From a virus: DNA of 64,000 nucleotides. Numbering within the stretch: the first letter of the stretch is position 1; the number at the start of each line of letters is the position of its first letter. Location: the IMG/VR virus record IMGVR_UViG_3300032287_003808, positions 32,001 to 96,000 of that record, one strand, 5' to 3'. This document shows positions 38,339 to 60,091 of this stretch, in pieces. The translations under genes and the position numbers were made by a program. Below the pieces are notes generated by a model. The model ran no database searches. It was not told the DNA's origin and saw nothing but the letters and a program-made list of their open reading frames with translations.

Positions 38339-39133
38339 TTACAAACTATTTAACATATTTTTTAAACTATCACTCTTAATTGAACTTAACGCTTTGGTTT
38401 TAGTTGGAGTTTTCTTTGGAGTGTCTTGTTGTGTCCCCAATGTAAAATTTCCTTTTTTACTATCCACGGATTTCTTACCTTCTTTTAACTTAGGTAGCCA
38501 TTCACGTTCAAACTCAATACGTGACGCCATTAAATCGGCTTGATGTAGAATATAAGGTAAACTAGTTCTTGGTTTTTGTCCTGGGGTAAATGAGATAAAG
38601 TATTTTTTATTAGCTTCATCATACAAGCCATCATGAGTTTGGATAGCAATCATCTCATTAAATGTATATTGAATACCATGAGATTGAAGTAAATATAAGC
38701 CTCTATCTGGTACTGAAGCAAATGGTACGCGCTCATTAAACATATAATCCTCTCCTAGTTTATCTCGGCGCCATTGATCTGTTTGAGGTAAATATGACTC
38801 TTCATCTTCTGAGCCTAGTTTACCTAAATCATGATTTAAAGCTGAGAATACTAATTCTTCAAGAGTAAAAGTAGATGTATCGCATCCTTCTTCATCCCAT
38901 AATTCAGCTTGCTTAATAGCACATCTAATAACTCGTAAAACATGTTCTACATACCCTCCAGGGAAAGCATTATGATACTCTTTTTTATGTGATGCAGGCA
39001 TCAACATTAAACGATCAGAATACTGTTCATAAAATTCTAATAATTTTTCTTTACGAGGAGATGAAATATGCTTATCAATGTAAGACATCAAGTCACCCCA
39101 ATTTGCTTGGATTTGTTCTGCTGTTAGATTCAT
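38339..39133 (-). CDS. HD-domain phosphohydrolase (YhaM-like)
   Basis: PAS...YHNAFPGGYVEH...LNHDLGK...HDG...LHQAD. Confidence 0.9.
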   Translation of the reverse strand: MNLTAEQIQANWGDLMSYIDKHISSPRKEKLLEFYEQYSDRLMLMPASHKKEYHNAFPGGYVEHVLRVIRCAIKQAELWDEEGCDTSTFTLEELVFSALNHDLGKLGSEDEESYLPQTDQWRRDKLGEDYMFNERVPFASVPDRGLYLLQSHGIQYTFNEMIAIQTHDGLYDEANKKYFISFTPGQKPRTSLPYILHQADLMASRIEFEREWLPKLKEGKKSVDSKKGNFTLGTQQDTPKKTPTKTKALSSIKSDSLKNMLNSL

Positions 39134-40011: not shown

Positions 40012-40497
40012 TTATAAGTACCTTTGTCCCAACAATGTAATGGCTGTTTTGGCTTCCTCCACGGATATTTGAAAAAACTCTCTATCGTTATTTATCCTAT
40101 AACCTTTTAAATACCTATGAAGCTCAATTTCTAAAGCGTGTGCATTAAAGCATCTAAACGCATATACAACACTAAACTCCAAAGGCACGCCAGTTGATCG
40201 AGAAATTTGTTTAGCACGTTTATCCGGCGTCTTATCAGTAAATCCTATTTTAACCAAATTAGGCATAGTCTTATTTGTCAAAATGTAGATCCATGAGTCA
40301 CCTTCACCTTCCCTATTTTGATACAGATCTTTTTTTCTAGCTGTATAATAAGTTACGTTATCCCATTCTGGGTCTTCTTCATTTGGTGTTAGGGTAAAGA
40401 ATGCTGGTTCTGATCCTGTGAAGTCTTCTGATACTGGGATATAATTGTGTGCTTCGGATTCACTAATACGTTTCATACTAGTTTGGGTATTTTTCAT
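40012..40497 (-). CDS. GIY-YIG / T5orf172-domain protein
   Basis: WIYILTN..MPNLVKIGFT...RAKQISRSTGVP...E..LH...REFF. Confidence 0.9.
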   Translation of the reverse strand: MKNTQTSMKRISESEAHNYIPVSEDFTGSEPAFFTLTPNEEDPEWDNVTYYTARKKDLYQNREGEGDSWIYILTNKTMPNLVKIGFTDKTPDKRAKQISRSTGVPLEFSVVYAFRCFNAHALEIELHRYLKGYRINNDREFFQISVEEAKTAITLLGQRYL

Positions 40498-40799: not shown

Positions 40800-41088
40800 A
40801 GTATATACAAATATACTTGGTCAAAAGGTGAAATTTTTTTAAAGATCTCTTTTTGTGGGTTTTTGGGTTTTATCCATTTTTGCAATTTTGGAATCATGGG
40901 GTATATTCTTTGGGTGGTATATAATTATATATTTATCGATGGGTAAAAGTTGTTTTCGCTCTATAAATCCATCACATTCCTTCCCGTATACCCATACCCC
41001 GTACATTGACCGTAACGCGTACGGGGGATATACATACCTAGTACGTACCATATATGTACCATATACCGTATGCGGTGAGACTACGGAA
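40800..41088. other. Non-coding structured boundary region
   Basis: Local G/C skew flip near 40960; inverted repeat CCCCGTAC/GTACGGGG (40997-41026); short (G)TACCATAT repeats. Confidence 0.45.
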
Positions 41089-41108
41089 GTGGGTCCTTGC
41101 GGACCCAC
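41089..41108 (-). terminator. GNRA-capped hairpin ending the small-gene array
   Basis: GTGGGTCC-GCAA-GGACCCAC; U-tract weak. Confidence 0.6.
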
Positions 41109-41127
41109 CTTTATTAGAAGCGCTAAA

Positions 41128-41352
41128 CTACCATCTCGTCACTTGGTCATCATTGTTTTTGGTTGTCATGTATTCCGCATACGGGTCTTCACAGTTCTCA
41201 ATCGCTCTAACTATGTCACTTTTCAAATACGCAGCGTCCATCACGCTTAACTTACTTGTGTCGTAACCCATCGCCTTCAAGAAATCCATTACTGCGATGA
41301 ACTGATCCATTACGTTCACATCTACACCATCAAGTTTTTTCAAATTTTTCAT
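41128..41352 (-). CDS. Small hypothetical protein
   Basis: Own promoter and GGTTATG leader. Confidence 0.8.
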   Translation of the reverse strand: MKNLKKLDGVDVNVMDQFIAVMDFLKAMGYDTSKLSVMDAAYLKSDIVRAIENCEDPYAEYMTTKNNDDQVTRW

Positions 41353-41394
41353 AACCGCTATTTTTAATTATACTTTAATATACGTAATTCAATT

Positions 41395-41607
41395 TCAGAG
41401 TCTGTATCCCAACATATAATTGCCAATGTAACTATCTAAACTTGTTCCGCGGCAAATGTCATACCCTGTTTCCGCCTTGTCGTTATCACGTTTCGCATAC
41501 TCTTCTAACGCGGTGTACACTTCAGGTATCAATATTTTCTTCCACCCTGACAACTGTTCTGCTTGGATTCTCATTCCGTCCACTACTGTAAAAACTTTTC
41601 TTTCCAT
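41395..41607 (-). CDS. Small hypothetical protein
   Basis: Own promoter and leader. Confidence 0.8.
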   Translation of the reverse strand: MERKVFTVVDGMRIQAEQLSGWKKILIPEVYTALEEYAKRDNDKAETGYDICRGTSLDSYIGNYMLGYRL

Positions 41608-41647
41608 AACCGTTTCTTTAAATATACTTTAATATACGTAACTGTCT

Positions 41648-41782
41648 TTAGTCATTAGTGTCCTTAGCTAACTCTTCAAACTGTAATATCAACAACGGAA
41701 CCAATCCGATTAAACCCCAATCGTTCCCGAACGCCAATAATATCGTTCCAAATACTCCTACTGTAATACCAAATGTTCTCAT
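41648..41782 (-). CDS. Small membrane protein (44 aa)
   Basis: Not in track: MRTFGITVGVFGTILLAFGNDWGLIGLVPLLILQFEELAKDTND; leader identical over 23 nt to that of 41395..41607. Confidence 0.7.
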   Translation of the reverse strand: MRTFGITVGVFGTILLAFGNDWGLIGLVPLLILQFEELAKDTND

Positions 41783-41829
41783 AACCGTTTCTTTAAATAT
41801 ACTGAAATATACGTAATGTCATTTGCGAC

Positions 41830-42144
41830 TTATACTCCCGTCTTTGCTCTCAATATGTCATCTAACATGTCGATTAGGTCTCCTAGGTAGCCATTACGAG
41901 CTAAGTCATCTAAATCGTATGTCTGGTCTTCATAATACCCACCACAACAATCACATCCGAAATCAATATACTCACCTAACACTACTGTTCCGTTTTCGAA
42001 ATCGAAACCTCGCAACTCCAATTTACCCACTTTGTCAAGTCGATCACACCATAACTCCATTTCGAAATCGATGTCTTTAATTTTTCCGAATTGTGTAAAC
42101 GTGTTACACGCGTCCATAAACTCTCTTGCTGTCATAACCTTCAA
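41830..42144 (-). CDS. Acidic Cys-containing hypothetical protein
   Basis: GCDCCGG; ATG at 42135 has the GGTTATG leader and is the likelier start. Confidence 0.75.
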   Translation of the reverse strand: MKVMTAREFMDACNTFTQFGKIKDIDFEMELWCDRLDKVGKLELRGFDFENGTVVLGEYIDFGCDCCGGYYEDQTYDLDDLARNGYLGDLIDMLDDILRAKTGV

Positions 42145-42218
42145 TTTAGAATATACAATAAAGCAAATTTAACACCTACTACTCCCACTGCCAATAATAA
42201 ACATACTAAAACTTCCAT
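42141..42218 (-). CDS. 25-aa hydrophobic peptide
   Basis: Not in track: MEVLVCLLLAVGVVGVKFALLYILN; own promoter and leader. Confidence 0.55.
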   Translation of the reverse strand: MEVLVCLLLAVGVVGVKFALLYILN

Positions 42219-42268
42219 AACCGTTATTTTTAATTATACTTTAATATACGTAACAATGTTTGGTGTTA

Positions 42269-42427
42269 TTACTCCTTTATAACGTGTTTAATATACTCTC
42301 CCTCATCGAACCAATAAAACGCTAGTCGTCCGTCTTCAAGTCGTAACGTTATCACCGCTTGGTCTAAATTGCCATCCATACTCAAAATGTCGGCTCCGTG
42401 TTTCTGTAAAAATGTTTGCGTTCTCAT
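42269..42427 (-). CDS. Small hypothetical protein (52 aa)
   Basis: Not in track: MRTQTFLQKHGADILSMDGNLDQAVITLRLEDGRLAFYWFDEGEYIKHVIKE. Confidence 0.6.
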   Translation of the reverse strand: MRTQTFLQKHGADILSMDGNLDQAVITLRLEDGRLAFYWFDEGEYIKHVIKE

Positions 42428-42437
42428 GTACCCCGAA

Positions 42438-42455
42438 AGCCCGATTACTCGGGCT
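42438..42455 (-). terminator. GNRA-capped hairpin
   Basis: AGCCCGA-GTAA-TCGGGCT; weak U-tract. Confidence 0.55.
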
Positions 42456-42482
42456 CACAAGGTGTATATTTAAGATAACCGG

Positions 42483-42905
42483 TTATGAAGCGGTGTCGTT
42501 AATTACTACTTTTGGTCTTCCAAGTGGCATCACACCACCATTAGCGGCTTTCTTGGCTTCCATTTCCGCCAATCGTTTCTGGCGCGCACTTTCCCCATTC
42601 ACCGGGCGACCTTTTTTCAACTCACCATTTGCTCGTTTCGTCTCTAACTCCACTAACCGCATTTGGCGGGCACTGTCTGCCTTAATTGGTCGACCCTTTT
42701 TCAACTCACCATTCGCTCGTTTCTCAGCCAACTCGGCAATTCGTATTTGGCGGGCACTATCTGCCTTAACTGGTCGGCCTCGTTTCCCTGTTGTCTCTGG
42801 CTTGGCCATGTTTGCCAACATCTCTTCCAATACTACGCTCTTCATTGTATGAGCTCCTTTAATTCCTGCTGCAATCGCTGTTGCTACTAATTCATTTCTT
42901 TTCAT
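42483..42905 (-). CDS. AT-hook (GRP) repeat DNA-binding protein with Rho_N/HeH-like N-terminus
   Basis: Four GRP motifs in 28-aa repeats; ELVATAIAAGIKGAHTMKSVVL. Confidence 0.7.
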   Translation of the reverse strand: MKRNELVATAIAAGIKGAHTMKSVVLEEMLANMAKPETTGKRGRPVKADSARQIRIAELAEKRANGELKKGRPIKADSARQMRLVELETKRANGELKKGRPVNGESARQKRLAEMEAKKAANGGVMPLGRPKVVINDTAS

Positions 42906-42955
42906 AACTGTTATTTTTAATTATACTTTAATATACGTAACTGATTTAACTTAAC

Positions 42956-43096
42956 TTACTCCCCACTTAAACTGATGTAATTAAATTGGTTGTAATCCAT
43001 CTCACCAATAATCATAGATGCTACTACCGTTACTAATCCTACTACCGCAATGGTTCCCATTGCTCCTAATACTAATGTTTCAATCCAATTTTTCAT
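42956..43096 (-). CDS. Small membrane protein (46 aa)
   Basis: Not in track: MKNWIETLVLGAMGTIAVVGLVTVVASMIIGEMDYNQFNYISLSGE; own promoter. Confidence 0.65.
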   Translation of the reverse strand: MKNWIETLVLGAMGTIAVVGLVTVVASMIIGEMDYNQFNYISLSGE

Positions 43097-43137
43097 AACC
43101 TTTTTTTATTTAATATACGTAACCAATCTAACTAAAC

Positions 43138-43206
43138 TTACTCCTCATTATATTCAGAGTACCATTCAATCTTTTCCCAGCTAATTAGTCCATCAAAATT
43201 CTCCAT
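43138..43206 (-). CDS. 22-aa acidic peptide
   Basis: Not in track: MENFDGLISWEKIEWYSEYNEE; own promoter and GGTTATG leader. Confidence 0.55.
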   Translation of the reverse strand: MENFDGLISWEKIEWYSEYNEE

Positions 43207-43256
43207 AACCTTTATCTTAAAATATAATTAAATATAAGTAATTTACTTTAATTCAT

Positions 43257-43448
43257 TTACTCCTTACTTAACCATTTTAACCCATTAACATCTTTAACTT
43301 CAATAATCTCATACTCATTTTTATCCCTATCACACAATTCTTCAAACTCAATCTCACCCACCTCATAACCTAAACTCTCAATCAATTCTTCCTTACTATT
43401 ACTAATAAAACTAAAATTTAAACAATAATCAATCACTAAATACTTCAT
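43257..43448 (-). CDS. Acidic small protein encoded with no cytosine on the coding strand
   Basis: No G on + strand 43239-43479; protein lacks A, P, T, H, Q; own promoter and leader. Confidence 0.8.
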   Translation of the reverse strand: MKYLVIDYCLNFSFISNSKEELIESLGYEVGEIEFEELCDRDKNEYEIIEVKDVNGLKWLSKE

Positions 43449-43513
43449 AACTTTATCTTTTTAATTTATATAAATATAAGTAACAAAAATGGGGGCTCTT
43501 ACACCCCCACTAA

Positions 43514-43735
43514 TTAAATATAATCATATTCATCATTCCAATTACACTCAATAAATCCTATCTCACTCAAATCATCTATATAATTATAACAAAAATCTAA
43601 ATAATCTTTATAAATTATATCCTCACCCACCTTAAACTCATTTAAAAAGTTATTTAACATCTCATCATCCTCATAAGATTCAATCACTTCTTTAACATAG
43701 TCATAATCTCTAGTCTTAAATTTAATTTTTCCCAT
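43514..43735 (-). CDS. Highly acidic/aromatic small protein (DNA-mimic candidate)
   Basis: D/E/Y-rich; only 4 C on the coding strand. Confidence 0.75.
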   Translation of the reverse strand: MGKIKFKTRDYDYVKEVIESYEDDEMLNNFLNEFKVGEDIIYKDYLDFCYNYIDDLSEIGFIECNWNDEYDYI

Positions 43736-43794
43736 AATCTTTATTTTTTAATTTATATAAATATAAGTAATAAAATTAAATAATTATGTTCCTG

Positions 43795-43983
43795 TTAATT
43801 AAATGTTACCATCCTGTGAGCTAATAAAGCCAACTCCGTGTCATTAAAGGGCTCTTCTCCCTCGTTAATATATTTTCTCAATTGGTAGGCCACTATGGCC
43901 TTTATATCCTGGCCTGATATCTCCCCTTCATTAGCCCTCTTCATGGCCAGTTTGAACCTGTTTATTACTTTAATCTCATTCAT
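43795..43983 (-). CDS. Small hypothetical protein
   Basis: Own promoter and leader. Confidence 0.75.
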   Translation of the reverse strand: MNEIKVINRFKLAMKRANEGEISGQDIKAIVAYQLRKYINEGEEPFNDTELALLAHRMVTFN

Positions 43984-44029
43984 AACCTTTATCTTTTTAA
44001 TTTATCTTAATATACGTAATTTGTTGGGG

Positions 44030-44260
44030 CTATTTTATTCCTAGCCCCTCATATTTCAATAAACTATTTGCAATATACCTATGTACGGCATTTATATTTT
44101 TGAATTGGGACACATTATCAACAATTATTTTCTTGTCTGTGTCCTTAATATTTTTAGTTTCAATAAAACTTAGAATTACTCCTTTTGCCTCATTCAAATC
44201 TCTAATCTGGAATACTTGTGGTGCCACCTCTTCCAATACGCTTTTAATTTTGATCTTCAT
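44030..44260 (-). CDS. Small hypothetical protein
   Basis: Own promoter and leader. Confidence 0.8.
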   Translation of the reverse strand: MKIKIKSVLEEVAPQVFQIRDLNEAKGVILSFIETKNIKDTDKKIIVDNVSQFKNINAVHRYIANSLLKYEGLGIK

Positions 44261-44319
44261 AACTTTATCTTTTTAATTTATTTAAATATATGTAACTAAA
44301 TTAGGGGGTCTTATTCCCC

Positions 44320-44580
44320 CTAAATCCAATCCATACTATATCCCATTTCAACTAACTTATCCATAATATACTCTGGTAATTCAAATACACCATCATAATC
44401 TCTTAGGTAAGTTGTGTCTCCTTCCTTATCAAACCATAGGCCTCCTTCGGCATAAACCCTTTCACCCCCTGTTTCAACATCATACAATTCAAACCAACCG
44501 TAGCCTTCATTCTTGATTCCTACTGTCACTTCTAATTCTGTTCCTCGTGGTGATACCACCTTAAATGTTTCTTCTTTCAT
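44320..44580 (-). CDS. Acidic hypothetical protein
   Basis: YAEGGLWF...LRDYDGVFELP; own promoter. Confidence 0.8.
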   Translation of the reverse strand: MKEETFKVVSPRGTELEVTVGIKNEGYGWFELYDVETGGERVYAEGGLWFDKEGDTTYLRDYDGVFELPEYIMDKLVEMGYSMDWI

Positions 44581-44629
44581 AACCTTTTTTTCTTTTAATA
44601 TACGTAACTATTTCTAATGATTTTACTCC

Positions 44630-44776
44630 CTAAAAATCACTTTTCATTAGTTCCTCTATCTTTTCTTTTAATTCTCCTAGTAATTCAGATGTTAGCTTTT
44701 CCTCATCAGCTAGTCCATTGTTCATTACATTAACTAATTCCTGTAGTACTAGTTGCTTTTCTTCCTTTAAACTCAT
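44630..44776 (-). CDS. Small helical protein (48 aa)
   Basis: Not in track: MSLKEEKQLVLQELVNVMNNGLADEEKLTSELLGELKEKIEELMKSDF. Confidence 0.6.
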   Translation of the reverse strand: MSLKEEKQLVLQELVNVMNNGLADEEKLTSELLGELKEKIEELMKSDF

Positions 44777-44840
44777 ATCTCTTTTTTTCTTAAATATATG
44801 TAATTAAAATAGGGGCTTTTACACCCCTATTATTTTATTT

Positions 44841-45161
44841 TTATTCTTCACTTTTAATCATTTTTGGTCTCCCTAACTTAAAAGTTCCATTTAATTTTCT
44901 TTCTTCTATTTCCTTCAACCTCATCTGTCTTTTACTCTCTCCATTAACAGGTCTTCCTTTCTTTAACTCCCCATTACTTCTCTTCTCTTCTAATTCTTTT
45001 AGCCTTACCTGTCTAACACTATCTTCTTTAATGGGTCTTCCTTTTTTAATCTCCCCATTCTTTCTTCTTTCTTCTAATTCCTTTAGTCTTAATTGTCTTA
45101 CACTTTCAGGATTAACTGGGCGTCCCAATTGTTTTACTTCAATAATCTCTACTTTTTTCAT
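44841..45161 (-). CDS. AT-hook (GRP) repeat protein, paralog of 42483..42905
   Basis: Four GRP motifs in the same 28-aa repeat; no alanine. Confidence 0.75.
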   Translation of the reverse strand: MKKVEIIEVKQLGRPVNPESVRQLRLKELEERRKNGEIKKGRPIKEDSVRQVRLKELEEKRSNGELKKGRPVNGESKRQMRLKEIEERKLNGTFKLGRPKMIKSEE

Positions 45162-45207
45162 AACACTTATCTTTTTAATTTACTTAAATATACGTAACAA
45201 ATTTAAC

Positions 45208-45402
45208 TTAAAACATTCCCCCGTCAATAATAAATACTTTAGTCTTTTTATTATCATCTTCACTCAGGTATACTTTTTCAGTTCCTATGTACTCAACATC
45301 ATTATAGTAAATATAATTTGTTGGGTCGGTTCCTTGAACAATCACTTCTAGATCTTTGTCCTTAACCTTTTCTAATTTTTTAATTAACTCCTTTACTGTC
45401 AT
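45208..45402 (-). CDS. Small hypothetical protein
   Basis: MTVKELIKKLE N-terminus; own promoter; no Ala. Confidence 0.8.
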   Translation of the reverse strand: MTVKELIKKLEKVKDKDLEVIVQGTDPTNYIYYNDVEYIGTEKVYLSEDDNKKTKVFIIDGGMF

Positions 45403-45455
45403 AACCTTTTATATTTTTAATTATGTTGAAATATACGTAACAATTTCTAATAATT

Positions 45456-45767
45456 TTATTCCTCACTATCTATCATTTCTTTTAATTCTAGGAAAAAATC
45501 ATAGGCATCTGTTTTTCCTCCTATATGGAACTCATCCAATTCATTCATGGTGTATTCCTCATCATAAGTCTTCCAATCATAAACTGTAAATATCTCTCCA
45601 TTATACTCTACAATCCATTCCTTCTGAACCTTATCATCTCCTGATGCTTCTGGGTGTGTTGGTTCCCCTAGTACCCTAACTAGGTCCTGGTAGGTACAGT
45701 TAATGTATCCTTTAAATCCAGACCCTGATGTCTTCCCTTTTAATTCATTTTCTTTTAATACTTTCAT
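45456..45767 (-). CDS. Hypothetical protein
   Basis: LGEP...DDKVQKEW...FTVYDWK...FHIGG common phage pattern. Confidence 0.8.
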   Translation of the reverse strand: MKVLKENELKGKTSGSGFKGYINCTYQDLVRVLGEPTHPEASGDDKVQKEWIVEYNGEIFTVYDWKTYDEEYTMNELDEFHIGGKTDAYDFFLELKEMIDSEE

Positions 45768-45798
45768 AACCTTTTTTCTTTTAATATACGTAACTCTT

Positions 45799-45951
45799 TT
45801 AATCTAAGCTTATCCCCTTATGTTTATCTTTACGGGTGTATTTCTTTTTTGATTCCATCGCCCTCGCAACAAATCTTCCATCAAAGTACCCCTGTTGTTT
45901 CTGTGATTCCCTTGTGGCTCCTATGTTCATTTTAATTGTCTCCTTTTTCAT
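45799..45951 (-). CDS. Basic 50-aa protein with ArfA-like motif
   Basis: Not in track: ...GYFDGRFVARAMESKKKYTRKDKHKGISLD; own promoter. Confidence 0.55.
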   Translation of the reverse strand: MKKETIKMNIGATRESQKQQGYFDGRFVARAMESKKKYTRKDKHKGISLD

Positions 45952-46008
45952 TTCTTTTATTTTTAATAAATATACGAAACAATTTTAATAATTTTTAGTC
46001 CCTTTTAA

Positions 46009-46315
46009 TCATTCTCCCCCCTGTTCCCCCGTGGGGGTGTGGGGGTTGTATATACTTTCGTTCTCTACCCAAAGGGTCGTGTTCGCACCATGTAAGGGTC
46101 CGATACGACATTCCTCTATTCCACACTTATCATCTCCTGTTTTCCACCTACTCACAATCACTTCTAATCTCATTACCCCCTTATATTCCTGTTTGTCACC
46201 CATTGGTAAATATCCTTAATAAATTAAACGCGTATAAAACACTCAAATAACACTTATGATACATTTTATATTTTAATGGTGTTCTCATTTATATCACATT
46301 TATTTCATTTCTTAT
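46009..46315. other. Promoter-less structured region with C/G tracts
   Basis: CCCCCCTGTTCCCCCGTGGGGGTGTGGGGG and imperfect GTCGTGT/ATACGAC inverted repeat. Confidence 0.4.
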
Positions 46316-46498
46316 TTAATTATCTCCAAGGTATGTTTCATAAATTTCTAGTAATTCCTCTCCATCTACAATAAACGGATCTGTTTCCTCAAGAAATCCA
46401 AACTTACCATTGTCGGTCACTTCAAATTTATCCACTTCAAGTTGGAGAATATCAAATCCATTCTCAACTAATTCCTTAAATGCTGTTTTTACTTCCAT
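46316..46498 (-). CDS. Acidic small protein
   Basis: Own promoter and leader. Confidence 0.8.
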   Translation of the reverse strand: MEVKTAFKELVENGFDILQLEVDKFEVTDNGKFGFLEETDPFIVDGEELLEIYETYLGDN

Positions 46499-46629
46499 AA
46501 CTTTTTATTTTAATATACGTAAGTGATTTTTATTATTTTACTCCTCTATAATCTCATTCCACCCAATAACCTCTAATCACTAACATAACAATCAATACAC
46601 TAATGAATACTCCTATAAACAATTCCATA

Positions 46630-46785
46630 TCAAAACACTATAAAATCCTCTAAATACTCACCTGTTCCTTTTCCGTTCTTAGTTATTTCATAACTCGGAT
46701 CCATTCCACTATACATTACACGATCAATTAACTCTTGTAATGAATTAAATTCTTCCTTAAAGTAACTACAATCTAAACTATACAT
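46630..46785 (-). CDS. Small hypothetical protein (51 aa)
   Basis: Not in track: MYSLDCSYFKEEFNSLQELIDRVMYSGMDPSYEITKNGKGTGEYLEDFIVF; own promoter. Confidence 0.65.
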   Translation of the reverse strand: MYSLDCSYFKEEFNSLQELIDRVMYSGMDPSYEITKNGKGTGEYLEDFIVF

Positions 46786-46829
46786 AACTTTCTTATTTTT
46801 TATTTATACTGAAATATACGTTCTCTCTT

Positions 46830-52850: not shown

Positions 52851-53912
52851 TTATTCAAAATCCCTTATTGCTATTACTTTAGGGAATCGTGGAACGCCAT
52901 CTGTGGTTAATTCAAAGTATTTAACAGTTGCTTTTTTACCTATTAAATCACCTCGTTTAAATAACATTTCTAAATACTCATGGTCTCCATTCACTGCTGA
53001 ATCAAATCCATCAAATACTAGTTTGCCTATTTTACCTGTTAGTTTTCCTTTACCTTCAACTACGCCTTTAATTTCAAACTCATCATCCATGAATGATTTA
53101 TGTTTAAGTAAGTGTTTTGAACGCTTATTCTCATACTCACTACTTAACACTCTAACCATTTGACCTTCATACCCATCAGCCATATAAACACGATACATAT
53201 CCATTAAATCTTCTTCATTATGTATAATAGTTGTATCAACTACAATACAGCATCCAGGTAAATCTAAATCATTTATAGCAAAACTTCGTTCATGGAATTG
53301 ACCTGTATGTGATGGCAAGTCATAGATCCAATATTGGATGTATTGTTTGCTTTCAATTATATCATTCGGAGTTGGTTTTGTTTTTCTAACACACGAGATA
53401 ATCTTATTAAAATCAACCCCATCACTCTTATGAGCATACAACTCACCATCAAATACTAAATCAGGATATTTTTCAAATAGTGGTTTTAATGCTTCATGAA
53501 TGTGGGGGGCAGATATAAGTTCTTTCCCGTTGCGACTTCTCATTCCATCAATATCAATAATACATCTTACACCATCTAATTTAGGTTGAGTTGCTACTGG
53601 ATATTTGATTTTGTCTTTATAGTCATTGTAATCATGAGCCAACATTGGTTTGAAGAATATAGGTTTATCAATGTCATTGATGTCTTCAAATGCTCCTAAA
53701 TCCATTTTCTTTTTATGTAACGCTTTAGCTTGCTTTTGTGCTTGTTCTTCTGCTGTACAATATGATTTAGCCTCACATACAGTCCATTCAGATATAACTT
53801 TTTGACCATCAGTGAACCCTGACATTGTTCTGAATTTATTTGTTTCAGTTTCAATTGTCCATTCACTGATTTTTCCTGTCGTGGAACGTTTATACAATGT
53901 TTTAAATATCAT
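52851..53912 (-). CDS. lig: ATP-dependent DNA ligase
   Basis: KPMLA; QPKLDGVR (motif I); FDGELY; YEGQMVR; KRS..LLKHK; PRFP. Confidence 0.95.
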   Translation of the reverse strand: MIFKTLYKRSTTGKISEWTIETETNKFRTMSGFTDGQKVISEWTVCEAKSYCTAEEQAQKQAKALHKKKMDLGAFEDINDIDKPIFFKPMLAHDYNDYKDKIKYPVATQPKLDGVRCIIDIDGMRSRNGKELISAPHIHEALKPLFEKYPDLVFDGELYAHKSDGVDFNKIISCVRKTKPTPNDIIESKQYIQYWIYDLPSHTGQFHERSFAINDLDLPGCCIVVDTTIIHNEEDLMDMYRVYMADGYEGQMVRVLSSEYENKRSKHLLKHKSFMDDEFEIKGVVEGKGKLTGKIGKLVFDGFDSAVNGDHEYLEMLFKRGDLIGKKATVKYFELTTDGVPRFPKVIAIRDFE

Positions 53913-55503: not shown

Positions 55504-56313
55504 TTATTCTTCTTTACCTGTAACTAATCCATAAACAATCTTATTATGAGCCAACTCATATGTTAGTTCTTGTTCTACATTCCCGTTTCGGTTCTTTTGA
55601 AATGACATATATGTTCCACCTCCATCTCGTTCTGATCTACGTCTCATTTCTAGGAGCGCATCAGTCATATGTTTCAATTTATTTGAACCTACAAACTCTC
55701 CTGATTTAGTTACTTGTTGTATTAGTAGGAATGCTGTGAATTTATTTTCTTTATTCTCACCTTTGTTATGTCTAACACAAACATCAACTAACCATGATTC
55801 AGCTGTTTTACGATCCCATCCATTATCATCTCTAACACCGTCTAGTACTTCCGCAATTGAATCTATCAAAATACAATCATATCCTAAGTCAAATGCTTGT
55901 TCCATAACATCCTTAGTATTGTATTGAGTATAATCACTCACAAATAATGTATCTACAACACCAAACTGTTTAAATCGTTCAGTGTATTTAAACATCTGTT
56001 TGCGACCCATTTCACCCGACACAAACAAACATTTTGAGCCTTTGTTTTGAACCGCCGATAGGATGTCTAACATTACTGTTGTTTTTCCAACACCTGGATC
56101 TCCGATAATCATAACATTAGAAGCACATGGTATGCCTTGTTCGTGGGAAAAGAACCCATCAATAGTTTTAATTCCACTTGGCATTGCTTCTAACATTCTT
56201 GGATTAACATCTAGTTGATCCAACTTAGTGATTTGTGAAAAATCAATCAGTGAAGGCACTGCTGCTACATTACTGTACTTTGCGGGGCGACCGCGTCTTT
56301 TCATTTCTTCCAT
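55504..56313 (-). CDS. RecA-family (RadA/Sms-like) ATPase with N-terminal AT-hook
   Basis: GDPGVGKT; LFVSGE; ILIDSI; QVTKSGEFVGSNKLKHMTDA; KNRNG; KRRGRP. Confidence 0.85.
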   Translation of the reverse strand: MEEMKRRGRPAKYSNVAAVPSLIDFSQITKLDQLDVNPRMLEAMPSGIKTIDGFFSHEQGIPCASNVMIIGDPGVGKTTVMLDILSAVQNKGSKCLFVSGEMGRKQMFKYTERFKQFGVVDTLFVSDYTQYNTKDVMEQAFDLGYDCILIDSIAEVLDGVRDDNGWDRKTAESWLVDVCVRHNKGENKENKFTAFLLIQQVTKSGEFVGSNKLKHMTDALLEMRRRSERDGGGTYMSFQKNRNGNVEQELTYELAHNKIVYGLVTGKEE

Positions 56314-56357: not shown

Positions 56358-56951
56358 TTAAATAAAATCTTCCTCTACTAATTTATCTTTAAGAAGATCT
56401 CTTAATTTAGCTTTTGCTTTGAATAGATTTGATTTAGAAGTCCCTTCATTTATACCTAATATTTCAGCTACTTCTTTATGTGGGTGTTCTTCTAACACAT
56501 ATAATTTAAAAACTTTCCTATATGAATCAGGTAGTTTCTCTATTGTTAATAGTATTGTATCTAAAAAATCCTCACTATACTTTTTTTCCTCAGATTTAAG
56601 ATGAGTAGTATTAACATCAACAGTATTGTTTTTGAATTTATCTTTTCTTATTTCATCAATAGCTGTATTAATTACAATTCTACGCATCCACCCCTCTATT
56701 GAGTTGTTATATGAGTATTGAGATATTCTGTTAAATATTTTAATAAAACTGAGTTGTACTATGTCTTGTGCTTGGTGTTCGTTTTGAGTGTATTTAAGGC
56801 TCACATGCAACATTTTACTGTAGAACATATTGAACAGTGTTGTTTGACTCGCTTGTTTGTTTTGAACGCATCCATCAATGATATGTTTAAGATTATTTTC
56901 CATCAATATACTCATCTGTAAGGCATACATTACATTTTTGCTTTGGGGCAA
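56358..56951 (-). CDS. ECF-type RNA polymerase sigma factor (likely start 56903)
   Basis: AQDIVQLSFIKIF; GWMRRIVINTAID; LPDSYRKVF...HKEVAEILGINEGTSKSNLFKAK. Confidence 0.92.
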   Translation of the reverse strand: MPQSKNVMYALQMSILMENNLKHIIDGCVQNKQASQTTLFNMFYSKMLHVSLKYTQNEHQAQDIVQLSFIKIFNRISQYSYNNSIEGWMRRIVINTAIDEIRKDKFKNNTVDVNTTHLKSEEKKYSEDFLDTILLTIEKLPDSYRKVFKLYVLEEHPHKEVAEILGINEGTSKSNLFKAKAKLRDLLKDKLVEEDFI

Positions 56952-59287: not shown

Positions 59288-60091
59288 TTAGGCTGCTATA
59301 TATTTAGCAGCCACTGCAAACAATTCTTTATTAACTTTCAAGTCTTGATTGAAGTTCTTGATTCTACGAGCCTTTCTACTTCTATTTCCCGCTACGTAGT
59401 TAAAGTCTCCATCCAAAATCTTCTCTTGAACCACATTAAATATTGACCACAAGTCACTTCCTTCATCTTCCTTACGAACTGGTTTCAATAGTTCCTTAGC
59501 GTCAACTGTAATCCGTTTCATTTCATCTTCATTGAATCGTGTTGCTAATGCTTTCAAAGCAAACTCAACTGCTTGTTTCTCATCCAGTTGTATACTCTTC
59601 ATTTTATTCATTGACTCAACAGTCAATGGTAGACGTTCAACCATTTCCCGGATCTTTACTTGTAGTTCTTCAAATGTATACCCTAAGTGTCTCATCTTGA
59701 CATCTTCAAACTGTTCAGTTGAAATTACTAGTCCGTTCTCACATACCATTCTAAACAAACCAGCTGTAAATGTAAATGCATTTTTACCATCATGGCTATT
59801 TGTTAATAGAATCTGTGGAAAAACATCATCACCATCTGTACCATTAATTACTACTTCTGGGTTTCTAAATACAATCAGATGTTTCTGGAATCCTACACCT
59901 TTACGTGCTTTAACTTCCTTGGCATCTACTACTTGCCATCCTAATTGTTTCATGTCATCCACAATTACTGATGTTGGGATGTGAGTGTAATGTTGTGATA
60001 CATTACTAGCCGCTGTGGCTGTGAATACGCTCGGAGCGATTCTTTTGATTTGCTCATTTGTCAAAAATGAGTCTTTGCTTAGATCTAACAT
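59288..60091 (-). CDS. DUF932/DUF945-family protein
   Basis: APSVF...Y.HIPT...FQKHLIVFR...ILLTNSHDG...GLFRMVCENGLV...RH...LWSIFNVVQE. Confidence 0.9.
   Translation of the reverse strand: MLDLSKDSFLTNEQIKRIAPSVFTATAASNVSQHYTHIPTSVIVDDMKQLGWQVVDAKEVKARKGVGFQKHLIVFRNPEVVINGTDGDDVFPQILLTNSHDGKNAFTFTAGLFRMVCENGLVISTEQFEDVKMRHLGYTFEELQVKIREMVERLPLTVESMNKMKSIQLDEKQAVEFALKALATRFNEDEMKRITVDAKELLKPVRKEDEGSDLWSIFNVVQEKILDGDFNYVAGNRSRKARRIKNFNQDLKVNKELFAVAAKYIAA

What the first reader, a model, noticed from the sequence alone, without database searches (positions are those of the whole stretch)
41110..46800. Zoned, strand-specific motif avoidance across the 41-47 kb block
Seen (manual counts): 41.1-42.9 kb is CpG-rich for this genome but strongly lacks + strand AG (CU in mRNA), with 1 AG in 41401-41640 and none in 41670-41875 or 41906-42037, although AG is very common in late genes. 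43.2-43.8 kb lacks nearly all coding-strand C. 44.3-45.8 kb is almost Ala-free (0-2 Ala per protein in 44320, 44630, 44841, 45208, 45456). 46.1-46.8 kb is again G-poor on the + strand. Established: first-injected DNA of T5 and T7 is depleted of restriction sites. Inference: this is the first-entering or first-expressed segment, divided into zones that evade different sequence-specific defences.
Basis: partly seen in the sequence, partly recalled or inferred. Interest (0 to 1): 0.7.

Follow-up and report, generated by a model that had tools for sequence, protein, structure and literature searches.

The report
Phage genes written without cytosine
A stretch of tiny, promoter-flanked accessory genes in an uncultured lake phage is built from cassettes of sharply different letter make-up, including genes whose message strand holds no cytosine at all, a trait that relatives keep by selection and whose cause is still unknown.

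Summary
The block (window 41.1-46.8 kb, all genes on the minus strand) is the variable end of a 20-kb region in which about 45 small genes each follow one conserved promoter-like motif. The phage is an uncultured freshwater relative of Flavobacterium phage immuto. Lake populations gain and lose single cassettes at the promoter repeats.

The zones are runs of cassettes of three make-ups:
- GC3- and CpG-rich (41.1-42.9 kb). Its AG/CT gap is mostly codon choice.
- Cytosine-free (43.2-43.7 kb). One 63-codon gene has 0 C in 192 nt.
- Cytosine-poor (44.3-46.8 kb). The lack of alanine mostly follows from this.

Cytosine-free genes recur in 9 of 13 related loci, with runs up to 977 nt. Every detected homologue is also C-poor, and only 5.5% of the differences between homologues involve C, against 37% in ordinary genes. 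So the ban is maintained, most likely by selection on the transcribed strand. Rho avoidance is the only documented candidate, and it fits imperfectly.

Restriction-site evasion is not supported, and first entry is untestable here. This scan noted similar C-free early genes before, on unrelated viral DNA.

The parts
41128..42905 (-). Zone 1. Seven ORFs: 41128-41352, 41395-41607, 41648-41782, 41830-42135, 42141-42218, 42269-42427 and 42483-42905. The zone is rich in GC3 and CpG and poor in coding-strand CT and TC.
   Evidence: GC is 38-48% in six of the seven ORFs (the 25-aa ORF 42141-42218 has 28%). CpG O/E is 1.0-1.9 in those six ORFs. CT O/E is 0.35-0.64 in those six. The zone holds 8 TCGA.
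42483..42905 (-). 140-aa protein with three KKGRP...RQ.RL.ELE.KR.NGE repeats. This is the Ala-rich, high-C paralogue (21 Ala, C 17.5%).
   Evidence: (repeat D8). Homologues are found in 16 related loci. No Pfam or PHROG family matches.
43138..43735 (-). Zone 2, the cytosine-free cassettes: a 22-aa ORF at 43138-43206, a 63-aa gene at 43257-43448 (0 C) and a 73-aa gene at 43514-43735 (4 C).
   Evidence: The 63-aa protein has no P, H, Q, T or A. AlphaFold2 on 54 sequences gives pLDDT 88.9.
43239..43479 (-). Longest stretch of the window without C on the coding strand (241 nt). It covers the leader, the 63-codon gene and its 3' flank. A second run lies at 43496-43648 (153 nt).
43488..43511 (-). 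Terminator-like hairpin between the two C-free genes. It holds most of the coding-strand C of the zone.
43795..46785 (-). Zones 3 and 4: thirteen small ORFs (43795-43983 ... 46630-46785), mostly cytosine-poor (C 1-11%) and Ala-poor. Two richer cassettes are mixed in (43795-43983 and 46009-46203).
44841..45161 (-). 106-aa low-C, Ala-free paralogue of the KKGRP-repeat protein (C 6.2%, 0 Ala).
   Evidence: where the two paralogues differ, C in the high-C copy faces A 28 times, T 6 times and G 2 times.
41377..46522 (-). Array of 18 promoter-like motifs, one before almost every ORF. On the coding strand they read TTAC(G/T/A)TATATT (one reads TTTCGTATATT). The + strand 11-mers start at 41377, 41631, 41806, 42243, 42930, 43112, 43231, 43473, 43760, 44009, 44285, 44597, 44793, 45187, 45430, 45783, 45969 and 46512. 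A GGA(A/G)TA element lies 23 nt upstream of each.
   Evidence: A sigma-70-type scan is not enriched: 30 sites against 28.8 in shuffles.
43228..43471 (.). Natural deletion joint. Contigs of two lake runs join 43228 to 43471 and skip the 242 nt that hold the C-free 63-codon cassette, with both ends inside promoter repeats. Further joints: 42942>43089, 46298>46554 and 47031>47358.
   Evidence: table 5. Four of the 20 listed runs were laid.
44301..44323 (-). Terminator-like hairpin downstream of 44320-44580. Similar hairpins lie at 41089-41108 and 44808-44831.
   Evidence: 6 terminator-like sites against 2.4 in shuffles.

Best explanation
The block is the hyperplastic end of the early or middle gene region of an uncultured freshwater myophage related to Flavobacterium phage immuto. 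It is made of about 23 mini-cassettes. Each has a conserved promoter-like motif, a leader of 14-28 nt, an ORF of 22-140 codons and sometimes a hairpin. Cassettes are gained, lost and swapped by recombination between the repeated promoters.

The 'zones' are runs of neighbouring cassettes that belong to different, heritable make-up classes.

The decisive class is written with no or almost no cytosine on the sense strand, at all three codon positions. Its proteins therefore use 15 amino acids. C is tolerated mainly in terminator stems and in the promoter core. This state is actively maintained, most likely by selection acting on the transcribed strand or the transcript, because something in the infected cell reads C in single-stranded nucleic acid. 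Termination factor Rho, which loads on C-rich, G-poor naked RNA, is the only documented candidate.

The Ala-poor zone is the milder form of the same bias, since GCN codons need C. The AG-free, CpG-rich zone is a separate codon-usage island.

What is shown: the anatomy, cassette turnover, the discreteness of the C-free class and its maintenance. What is inferred: selection rather than mutation bias, action at the transcript level, and Rho as the agent.
For: **Anatomy**
- Forty-seven motif sites lie at window 41.3-73.3 kb, nearly all 14-28 nt before an ATG, and only 2 in the other orientation.
- Block proteins have no Pfam family above cut-off, and only faint PHROG hits of unknown function. Twenty ORFs were scanned in PHROGs and 10 in Pfam.

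**Turnover**
- The flanking HD protein is 71-84% identical in the 80 related loci kept (598 relatives confirmed). Block genes are found in 0-21 of those loci, at 33-69% identity.
- Lake contigs delete exact cassettes at the promoter repeats.

**A discrete class**
- The C content of 1245 ORFs in 80 loci is bimodal: 33 ORFs lie below 2%, then 6, 8 and 7 in the next three 1% bins, with the main mode at 13-15%.
- All runs of 150 nt or more that lack one base lack C on the coding strand. There are 32 rows, 30 of them distinct, and the longest is 977 nt.
- Nine of 13 own-clade loci with at least 6.5 kb upstream of the anchor hold such a gene.

**Maintenance**
- In 22 of 22 homologue pairs that involve a C-free gene, both members are C-free. 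Forty-two of 758 differences (5.5%) involve C, against 370,028 of 996,872 (37.1%) in ordinary pairs. One pair has 47 differences and none involves C.
- 396 database homologues of the 63-aa protein were found. In the 120 listed, Ala is 0.04%, His 0.01% and Pro 0.09%.

**Not amino-acid make-up alone**
- Third-position C is 0.6% against 10.3% in ordinary early genes. Ser is 98% AGT, and Ser is kept at 4.5%.

**Not C-to-T decay**
- At codon positions 1 and 2 the lost C is replaced mostly by A and G.
- Between the two paralogues, C faces A 28 times and T 6 times.
- The window's copy lost the family's conserved Thr as Ser (AGT) and Glu.

**Real proteins**
- pLDDT is 88.9 and the family alignment has 21 nearly invariant columns.

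**Tied to transcription, not replication**
- All genes lie on one DNA strand. Even so, coding GC skew is +0.32 in the promoter-motif region against +0.06 in the structural genes.

**Rho as candidate**
- Excess C over G marks Rho targets, and purine-rich coding strands escape Rho (PMC13323073; Results, Discussion and one Methods section read).
- The Rho RNA-binding domain is found in the Bacteroidota control genome.
- The phage appears to rely on host RNA polymerase: it encodes its own ECF sigma factor and shows no match to the T7-type RNA polymerase family, though that search had no positive control.
Against: - Rho avoidance, as described, needs only G above C over about 150 nt and also disfavours T. 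Ordinary early genes here already have G about twice C, so Rho does not explain a second mode at zero.
- In C-free genes the lost third-position C became T (T3 47% against 36%). Val and Gly codons show no shift to purine endings.
- Ordinary early genes show no purge of synonymous C (C3 10.3% against 8.5% in late genes). The pressure is therefore class-specific, and what defines the class is unknown.
- The promoters of C-free and ordinary cassettes look alike.
- Mutation bias is not excluded. Synonymous C/(C+T) is about 1.3% against 22%, which a local 20-fold rise of C loss could also give. I had no polarised polymorphism data.
- Timing is not shown. The motif contains CGTATA, and the phage encodes an ECF sigma factor, so these could be middle rather than immediate-early promoters (the likeness to ECF -10 elements is recalled, not tested).
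- Earlier notes of this scan report C-free early genes in archaeal viruses, whose hosts lack Rho (my own knowledge; the notes are unchecked).
Confidence: 0.45

Rival explanations
1. Another cytosine-directed activity, not Rho, imposes the ban. Candidates are a chain-terminating CTP analogue (ddhCTP from a prokaryotic viperin), CTP shortage, a C-specific endoribonuclease, or a deaminase acting on mRNA or on the displaced coding strand. Each C would then carry its own cost, which would drive the count to zero.
For: - The ban is on the letter C itself, at all codon positions and in all contexts, and it is not a preference for purines.
- The distribution has a separate mode at zero.
- C persists mainly in terminator stems, where it is base-paired and lies beyond the coding part.
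- ddhCTP as a chain terminator made by viperins appears in the papers listed (listing and abstract starts only).
Against: - No such activity is known for these hosts.
- The phage appears to use host RNA polymerase (an ECF sigma factor is encoded). By recall, the published bacterial viperin effect concerns phage-type polymerases.
- Only some cassettes are affected, although all share one promoter type.
Confidence: 0.2
2. Mosaic origin. Each zone simply keeps the make-up of the phage or host it was copied from, without any zone-specific pressure in this genome.
For: - Cassettes are mobile.
- Z1 has a foreign-looking codon usage: NCG and NNC codons, GC3 about 45-52%, and CpG and TCGA not avoided.
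- Promoter subtypes change with the zones.
Against: - The order low-C, then C-free, then GC- and CpG-richer recurs at the same distance from the anchor across 14 loci.
- Low-C and high-C paralogues of one repeat protein both occur in this window and in L003 and L004.
- C-free genes stay C-free through 25-55% protein divergence inside this family, so the state is maintained here.
- No source with such a make-up is known.
Confidence: 0.15
3. A strand-specific mutation process acts on the non-template strand of very heavily transcribed cassettes. This could be enzymatic deamination or exposure in R-loops, which a G-rich, C-free transcript would itself reinforce. Selection only filters for protein function.
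For: - It is one-stranded and tied to the direction of transcription.
- A self-reinforcing loop could give a second mode at zero.
- In the window's two genes T3 (50-55%) and G3 are raised and A3 is lowered.
Against: - Family-wide, the share of G-ending codons is not raised: K 0.18 and E 0.25, as in ordinary early genes.
- At positions 1 and 2 the lost C is replaced mainly by A and G. C faces A 28 times and T 6 times between the paralogues.
- Ser is rebuilt as AGT rather than lost.
- Neighbours 50-100 nt away with the same promoter keep 8-17% C.
Confidence: 0.12
4. One reading: the block is the first DNA to enter, and its zones are purged of the recognition sites of different restriction-type defences, as in T5 and T7.
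For: - A strand without C cannot carry any palindromic site that holds a G:C pair. This follows from the sequence.
- The neighbouring region 47-62 kb does avoid TCGA (11 against 33, z -5.4) and TGCA (16 against 35, z -4.9) relative to synonymous shuffles.
- C-free genes were seen in 9 of 13 loci of the clade without a detectable G-modification pathway, and in 0 of 8 genomes of the clade that has one. These are only two clades.
Against: - No palindrome is depleted in the block beyond shuffles.
- Z1 is enriched in TCGA.
- The rest of the genome keeps ordinary sites, so a clean 0.5-1 kb gives no protection unless entry is stepwise, which is unknown.
- The cassette is dispensable in nature.
- With a Markov expectation, palindrome use is similar in both clades.
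Confidence: 0.08

Closest known systems
PeSL (promoter-early stem-loop) cassettes in the hyperplastic regions of T4-type phages (Arbiol et al. 2010, PMC2839356; abstract and outline read)
   Same: Both have many small ORFans of no known function, each behind a repeated promoter and some followed by a stem-loop. In both, insertions, deletions and replacements between close relatives have their breakpoints in the repeats.
   Different: The promoter here is not sigma-70-like. The phage is a Flavobacterium-type myophage with all genes on one strand. Only some cassettes carry a hairpin. Mini-circles were not tested. PeSL work does not describe make-up classes or C-free genes.
Purine bias of coding strands as Rho avoidance (Dierksheide et al. 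2026, PMC13323073; Results, Discussion and one Methods section read)
   Same: In both, the coding strand is enriched in G over C and in purines, the bias is tied to the direction of transcription rather than replication, and it shapes both codon and amino-acid use.
   Different: Here the extreme class bans C outright while T rises, with no shift to purine-ending codons. It affects a discrete subset of genes, not all of them. The work was done in Bacillus; nothing in the main text concerns phage genomes beyond one sentence, or Bacteroidota.
Depletion of restriction sites in the first-entering DNA of T5 and T7
   Same: Both concern an early-type region of tiny genes in a virulent phage.
   Different: No palindrome depletion was found in the block. 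The bias is one-stranded. The position of the block relative to the genome ends is unknown.
[quoted passage not shown]
   Same: It is the nearest cultured relative. The HD protein is 53% identical, and gene order is shared: DUF932, small genes, T5orf172, HD, baseplate. One near-C-free homologue is present, with 5 C in 357 nt.
   Different: The window's contig and four other large contigs of its clade show no DpdA, QueC, FolE or formyltransferase, while the controls were positive. The window's phage has a family B rather than a family A DNA polymerase. Eight DpdA-bearing relatives have no C-free genes.

Membership tests
PeSL-type hyperplastic cassette array | One repeated promoter motif directly upstream of many small non-essential ORFs | tested here: met
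   Forty-seven sites, 18 of them in the block, mostly 14-28 nt before the ATG. The promoter type differs from sigma-70.
PeSL-type hyperplastic cassette array | A stem-loop terminator joined to the promoter | tested here: inconclusive
   Six terminator-like hairpins in 6.5 kb against 2.4 in shuffles. Only a minority of the cassettes have one.
PeSL-type hyperplastic cassette array | Insertions, deletions or replacements between close relatives with breakpoints in the repeats | tested here: met
   Joints 43228>43471, 46298>46554, 47031>47358 and 42942>43089 in contigs of 2-3 lake runs. Block genes are patchy in 80 related loci.
PeSL-type hyperplastic cassette array | Encapsidated mini-circles | not testable with these tools
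   This needs phage DNA or raw reads. Only contigs were laid.
Rho-avoiding purine-biased coding sequence | Coding strand with G above C and a purine excess, independent of replication strand | tested here: met
   GC skew is +0.32 and purines 61.3% in the promoter-motif region, against +0.06 and 55.4% in the structural genes on the same DNA strand.
Rho-avoiding purine-biased coding sequence | Purine-ending codons preferred in four-codon families | tested here: not met
   In C-free genes, Val is A+G 51% against 56% in ordinary early genes, and Gly is 58% against 55%. The lost C3 became T3.
Rho-avoiding purine-biased coding sequence | Host has Rho and uncoupled ('runaway') transcription | tested here: inconclusive
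   The Rho RNA-binding domain is found in the Bacteroides thetaiotaomicron control. The host of this phage and its coupling state are unknown.
Rho-avoiding purine-biased coding sequence | Recoding towards pyrimidines causes Rho-dependent termination | not testable with these tools
   This is an experiment.
First-step-transfer or leading-end DNA purged of restriction sites (T5, T7) | Lies at the genome end that enters first | not testable with these tools
   The contig is a linear fragment, 82% complete, with no terminal repeat.
First-step-transfer or leading-end DNA purged of restriction sites (T5, T7) | Fewer restriction-type (palindromic) sites than composition and coding predict | tested here: not met
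   All 16 four-base palindromes have |z| < 3. Six-base GC-containing palindromes number 28 against 31.5. TCGA is enriched in Z1.
First-step-transfer or leading-end DNA purged of restriction sites (T5, T7) | Its own pre-early promoter class | tested here: not met
   The block has the same bipartite motif as the ligase, RecA-like and sigma genes. Only one position differs by zone, TTAC against TTTC.
7-deazaguanine-modified phage (DpdA pathway) | DpdA together with the preQ0/preQ1 synthesis genes | tested here: inconclusive
   None was found in the 131-kb contig or in four other contigs of the clade. Immuto and one DpdA-bearing genome served as positive controls. All five contigs are incomplete (44-82%).

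The most novel reading that the evidence does not exclude
Some viruses of prokaryotes keep a set of accessory early genes written entirely without cytosine, so that the proteins use a 15-letter alphabet. The purpose would be that the message, or the coding DNA strand laid bare during transcription, offers no target to a host immunity that acts on cytosine itself. That could be a chain-terminating CTP analogue, CTP depletion, or a C-specific nuclease or deaminase. C-free cassettes would then be a general, portable counter-defence format, perhaps carrying the genes that must still be expressed when that immunity is active. They may also be an alternative to wholesale base modification: they are absent from the 8 relatives examined that carry the 7-deazaguanine pathway.
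Probability: 0.25. Interest if true: 0.9.

Novelty: new variant of a known kind. Interest (0 to 1): 0.72.

Why it matters
Strand bias of coding sequences (purine loading, G above C) is known as a statistical tendency. Here it reaches an absolute: natural, folded proteins encoded without one of the four letters, in stretches of up to about 1 kb. The trait is kept through long divergence in an abundant family of lake phages.

That gives a clean natural experiment on what reads cytosine in early phage messages. It also gives a cheap sequence signature, runs without C on the sense strand, for finding such genes in metagenomes, and a set of about 35 unrelated small proteins whose function is likely tied to the first minutes of infection.

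If the agent is Rho, the purine-bias idea extends to phages and to Bacteroidota. If it is not, an unknown cytosine-directed host activity is implied. The same trait was noted earlier in this scan on unrelated viral DNA, which suggests that it is general.

Tried and rejected
- **Near-identical DNA in the phage collection:** no match.
- **tRNAs in the window:** none.
- **Rfam on 40.5-47.5 kb at E up to 0.1:** nothing.
- **Family searches on block proteins.** PHROGs (20 ORFs) and Pfam (10 ORFs) gave only faint hits to families of unknown function. Ten C-free proteins of relatives, out of 35 non-redundant ones, were scanned in PHROGs and ten in Pfam (9 shared). The result was one faint PHROG hit and no Pfam hit.
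- **Fold of the 63-aa protein.** There was no Foldseek match at E up to 0.001 in the PDB. The best VIA-align Z was 4.2 among 48,161 chains. So there is no functional lead, and this does not show a new fold.
- **Paralogue tree of the repeat protein.** It was too poorly resolved to date the split: 3 of 15 inner branches were starred.
- **Idea that C-free genes avoid modified G in the template strand.** Rejected. Eight relatives that carry DpdA have 0 of 339 ORFs below 3% C in the 20 kb upstream of the anchor.
- **Idea that the promoter's own C is lost in C-free zones.** Not supported. C is absent in 16 of 49 such promoters against 49 of 203 elsewhere. Where a hairpin precedes the promoter, C is kept in 5 of 6, against 28 of 43 without a hairpin (P 0.65).
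- **Palindrome avoidance as a difference between the clades.** With Markov expectations the values are similar: CATG 0.63 against 0.62-0.66, TGCA 0.67 against 0.83-0.86, TCGA 0.91 against 1.03-1.04.
- **Adenine-deamination signature.** G3 is raised in the window's two genes, but this is not general in the family.
- **Ala-specific avoidance in Z3 beyond C-poverty.** Marginal. There are 4 Ala against about 11 expected at the low-C class rate of 2.7% (my estimate).
- **RNA evidence.** No RNA holder was listed among the 20 runs. Only DNA contigs were laid.
- **T7-type RNA polymerase family search.** Neither the contig nor any control matched, so it says nothing.
- **Literature.** 'cytosine-free' occurred in none of the 15 papers listed for phage or coding-strand terms. 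'purine loading' occurred in none of the 12 listed with phage early genes. These two searches are the only basis for calling the trait undescribed.
- **Supplements.** The supplements of PMC13323073, which hold the excess-C formula, were not seen, so the Rho target score could not be computed.

Full report
**What the region is.** The window lies in a single 131,434-bp viral contig (GC 31.8%). The contig is a linear fragment rated 82% complete, without terminal repeats. ORFs on the minus strand alone cover 92.6% of it. The nearest cultured relative is Flavobacterium phage vB_FspM_immuto (160 kb). Its HD-domain protein is 53% identical to 38339-39133, and gene order is shared: DUF932, small genes, T5orf172, HD, baseplate. 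DNA runs that hold the block are freshwater and lake metagenomes. The HD protein has 598 confirmed relatives in IMG/VR, and the best 80 are 71-84% identical, so the family is abundant.

**Check of the observation.**
- + strand AG is 1, 0 and 0 in the three spans, against 7.1, 6.8 and 3.5 expected.
- Over 41110-42900 there are 30 AG against 63.1 expected, and CpG O/E is 1.40 against 0.57 for the contig.
- 43200-43800 holds 14 G in 601 nt, and 46100-46800 holds 43 G in 701 nt.
- Ten of the 12 longest AG-free runs of the whole contig lie at 41.6-48.0 kb.
- The five named proteins hold 1, 1, 0, 0 and 2 Ala, that is 4 of 407 residues (P about 2-4e-5).
The gene 43257-43448(-) has no C at all in its 192 coding-strand bases. 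It is the lowest of 210 ORFs (mean 13.4%) and P is 1e-12. Its protein lacks Pro, His, Gln, Thr and Ala. Its neighbour 43514-43735 has 4 C.

- For Z1, with amino-acid sequences kept and codons drawn from the contig's usage, coding-strand CT is 25 against 64 (z -6.4) and CG is 76 against 35 (z +7.8).
- With synonymous codons shuffled within each gene, CT is 25 against 32 (z -2.9).
- So the gap is not due to amino-acid make-up, but it is largely the genes' own codon choice. Leu is coded by TTR, Ser by AGT, NCG is used in place of NCT, and many codons are NNC.
- Z1 is therefore a GC3- and CpG-rich codon-usage island.
- It is not purged of restriction-type sites. No 4-base palindrome in the block departs from shuffles by |z| of 3 or more. 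Z1 carries 8 TCGA (4.4 per kb) against 0.92 per kb in the contig.
- The AG gap is one-stranded. Coding-strand AG is 133 and not depleted.

**Anatomy.**
- An 11-base motif, TT(A/T)CGTATATT on the coding strand, occurs 47 times between window 41.3 and 73.3 kb, almost always 14-28 nt before an ATG.
- A conserved GGA(A/G)TA element lies 23 nt upstream of it.
- The same motif precedes the ligase (52851-53912), the RecA-like gene (55504-56313), DUF932 (59288-60091) and an ECF-type sigma factor (56358-56930).
- A sigma-70-type scan is not enriched: 30 sites against 28.8.
- The block uses the TTAC form and the region beyond 47 kb mostly the TTTC form.
- Some cassettes end in G+C hairpins (6 against 2.4 in shuffles).
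- The block's proteins have no known family.

**Turnover.**
- While the flanking HD gene is 71-84% identical in the 80 related loci kept, block genes are found in 0-21 of them, at 33-69% identity.
- Contigs from four lake runs (4 of the 20 listed runs were laid) show joints whose ends lie in the promoter repeats.
- One joint, 43228>43471, removes exactly the C-free cassette. It appears in two runs, with 140 nt on the shorter side. Others are 46298>46554, 47031>47358 and 42942>43089.
- This is the behaviour described for PeSL cassettes in T4-type phages (PMC2839356, abstract).

**The cytosine-free class is general in the family.**
- Among 1245 ORFs of the 80 loci, C content is bimodal. Thirty-three ORFs lie below 2%, few lie between 2 and 5%, and the main mode is at 13-15%.
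- There are ORFs of 138, 137, 118, 96 and 83 codons with no C at all.
- All stretches of 150 nt or more that lack one base lack C on the coding strand. There are 32 rows; the window's two runs are listed twice, so 30 are distinct. The longest is 977 nt and spans two genes with their promoters.
- Nine of 13 loci of this clade with at least 6.5 kb upstream of the anchor hold such a gene, and 4 do not.
- Averaged over 14 loci, coding-strand C falls to 5-7% at 6.5 to 4.5 kb upstream of the anchor. It then rises to 12-15%, with CpG O/E of 0.78-0.87 at about 4 to 2 kb upstream (except 0.48 in the -3.0 to -2.5 kb bin). So the order of zones seen in the window recurs.
- Immuto has one such gene, with 5 C in 357 nt.

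**The state is maintained.**
- All 22 homologue pairs that involve a C-free gene have both members C-free. Some pairs come from near-identical loci such as L020 and L021.
- Only 42 of their 758 nucleotide differences involve C (5.5%), against 370,028 of 996,872 (37.1%) in ordinary pairs.
- A profile of the 63-aa family finds 396 database proteins. The 120 listed hold 0.04% Ala, 0.01% His and 0.09% Pro, and they keep 2-4 conserved Thr. The window's copy has replaced those Thr by Ser (AGT) and Glu.
- In 35 non-redundant C-free proteins, third-position C is 0.6% against 10.3% in ordinary early genes. Ser stays at 4.5% and is 98% AGT.
- At positions 1 and 2 the lost C is replaced mostly by A and G. 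Glu, Asp, Asn and Cys are enriched.
- The two paralogues of the KKGRP-repeat protein in the window (C 17.5% with 21 Ala, against C 6.2% with 0 Ala) differ mostly by C facing A: 28 times, against 6 for T.
- These patterns speak against plain C-to-T decay and for recoding under a ban.
- The 63-aa protein folds confidently (pLDDT 88.9 with 54 sequences, 49 of them from the 120 listed homologues). It has no informative structural neighbour.

**Where C is allowed.** In C-free cassettes, C is found mostly in terminator stems and in the promoter's CG. The promoter's C is not lost more often there than elsewhere: 16 of 49 against 49 of 203. The ban therefore covers the leader, the coding part and the 3' flank, which is the transcribed part. 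C-free messages are predicted to fold more weakly: -10.7 against -16.5 kcal/mol per 100 nt.

**What the pressure could be.**
- All genes share one DNA strand, yet coding GC skew is +0.32 and purines are 61% in the promoter-motif region, against +0.06 and 55% in the structural genes. The bias therefore follows the expression class, not replication.
- The documented mechanism of this kind is Rho avoidance. Rho targets have excess C over G, and secondarily high T, and purine-rich coding strands escape it where transcription outruns translation (PMC13323073).
- Rho's RNA-binding domain is present in the Bacteroidota control genome. The phage brings a sigma factor and shows no match to the T7-type RNA polymerase family, though that search was uninformative.
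- The fit is imperfect. Ordinary early genes already have G about twice C and keep synonymous C. The C-free class replaces C3 by T3 and shows no shift to purine-ending codons. Nothing explains why only some cassettes are affected.
- I therefore hold three things with different odds: selection against sense-strand C (about 0.7), action at the transcript level (about 0.6), and Rho as the agent (about 0.3).
- Other cytosine-directed activities and a self-reinforcing mutation process remain open.

**Base modification.**
- In immuto, all G is replaced by 7-(formylamino)methyl-7-deazaguanine through DpdA3 and the preQ1 pathway (PMC10516641; passages read).
- This suggested that C-free genes might avoid modified G in the template strand. 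The data reject that idea. Eight near-complete relatives that carry DpdA have 0 of 339 ORFs below 3% C in the 20 kb upstream of the anchor.
- The window's contig and four other large contigs of its clade show no DpdA, QueC, FolE or formyltransferase, with positive controls. All five are incomplete.
- So C-free cassettes were seen only in the clade without a detectable pathway, apart from one near-C-free gene in immuto. This is a two-clade contrast and is noted as a lead only.
- Palindrome use by Markov expectation is similar in the two clades.

The zoning and the strand specificity are real, and the region is of early type by its anatomy. 'Different sequence-specific defences per zone' is not shown. 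One zone is a codon-usage island, one is a letter ban, and the Ala-poor zone is mostly its milder form. Restriction-type evasion is not supported. First entry and timing could not be tested.

**Earlier notes of this scan.** Three unchecked notes on other genomes report related things: C-free early genes in archaeal viruses, TC- and CC-free early genes in a giant phage, and G-poor first early genes in a marine phage. One of them pointed me to PMC13323073, and another named the PeSL paper. I use them as leads, not as support.

Noticed in passing
window 41.3-73.3 kb (47 sites), e.g. 44597-44640: The promoter-like element is bipartite: a(G)GGA(A/G)TAa, about 15 nt, TT(A/T)CGTATATT, then an A-rich leader. 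The upstream gene's stop codon often lies inside the GGA(A/G)TAA part. It is not sigma-70-like. The CGTATA core recalls ECF-type -10 elements (recalled, not tested), and the phage encodes an ECF sigma factor.
   Followed up: partly
window 56358-56930 (-): A 190-aa ECF-type sigma-70 family factor (TIGR02937, 91 bits, over its cut-off). It lies inside the promoter-motif region.
   Followed up: partly
window 42483-42905 (-) and 44841-45161 (-): Two paralogues carry three tandem repeats of about 28 aa (KKGRP...S.RQ.RL.ELE.KR.NGE), which look like AT-hooks. Homologues occur in 16 of 80 related loci, and at least two loci hold both forms. Their function is unknown.
   Followed up: partly
L168-L175 (eight DpdA-bearing relatives) against L001-L080: C-free genes are absent from the 20 kb upstream of the anchor in 8 of 8 relatives that carry the 7-deazaguanine pathway. 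They are present in 9 of 13 loci of the window's clade, where no pathway gene was found. These are only two clades, so the contrast may be phylogenetic.
   Followed up: partly
window 40850-41125: A GC-rich stretch without a convincing gene lies between the T5orf172-like gene and the block. It is full of GTAC and CGTA words. As RNA, the minus strand folds at -61.7 kcal/mol (z -2.3). It is conserved with substitutions in four lake runs. No Rfam family matches.
   Followed up: partly
window 40012-40497 (-): A 161-aa protein matches PHROGs annotated as endonuclease or homing endonuclease (T5orf172-like in immuto). It sits directly at the edge of the variable block.
   Followed up: no
window 47.0-62.2 kb: The ordinary early region avoids TCGA (11 against 33, z -5.4) and TGCA (16 against 35, z -4.9) relative to synonymous shuffles. 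GC-containing 6-base palindromes are also low (97 against 125, z -3.2). The block itself does not show this.
   Followed up: partly
G000:C1:100749-101876 and 128056-130785 (outside the window): The thymidylate synthase carries an insertion (375 aa; 423 aa in immuto). The DNA polymerase is of family B, where immuto has family A, so the polymerase has been swapped between relatives.
   Followed up: no
window 42141-42218, 46554-46628, 42956-43096, 41648-41782 (-): Very small hydrophobic ORFs (24-46 aa) have their own promoter motif or are tightly packed between cassettes. They may be membrane peptides. Two of them are almost C-free (3 and 1 C).
   Followed up: no
L004 3638-4614: This is the longest stretch found without C on the sense strand (977 nt). 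It covers two whole genes (118 and 58 codons) and three promoter-like elements whose usual C has been replaced.
   Followed up: partly
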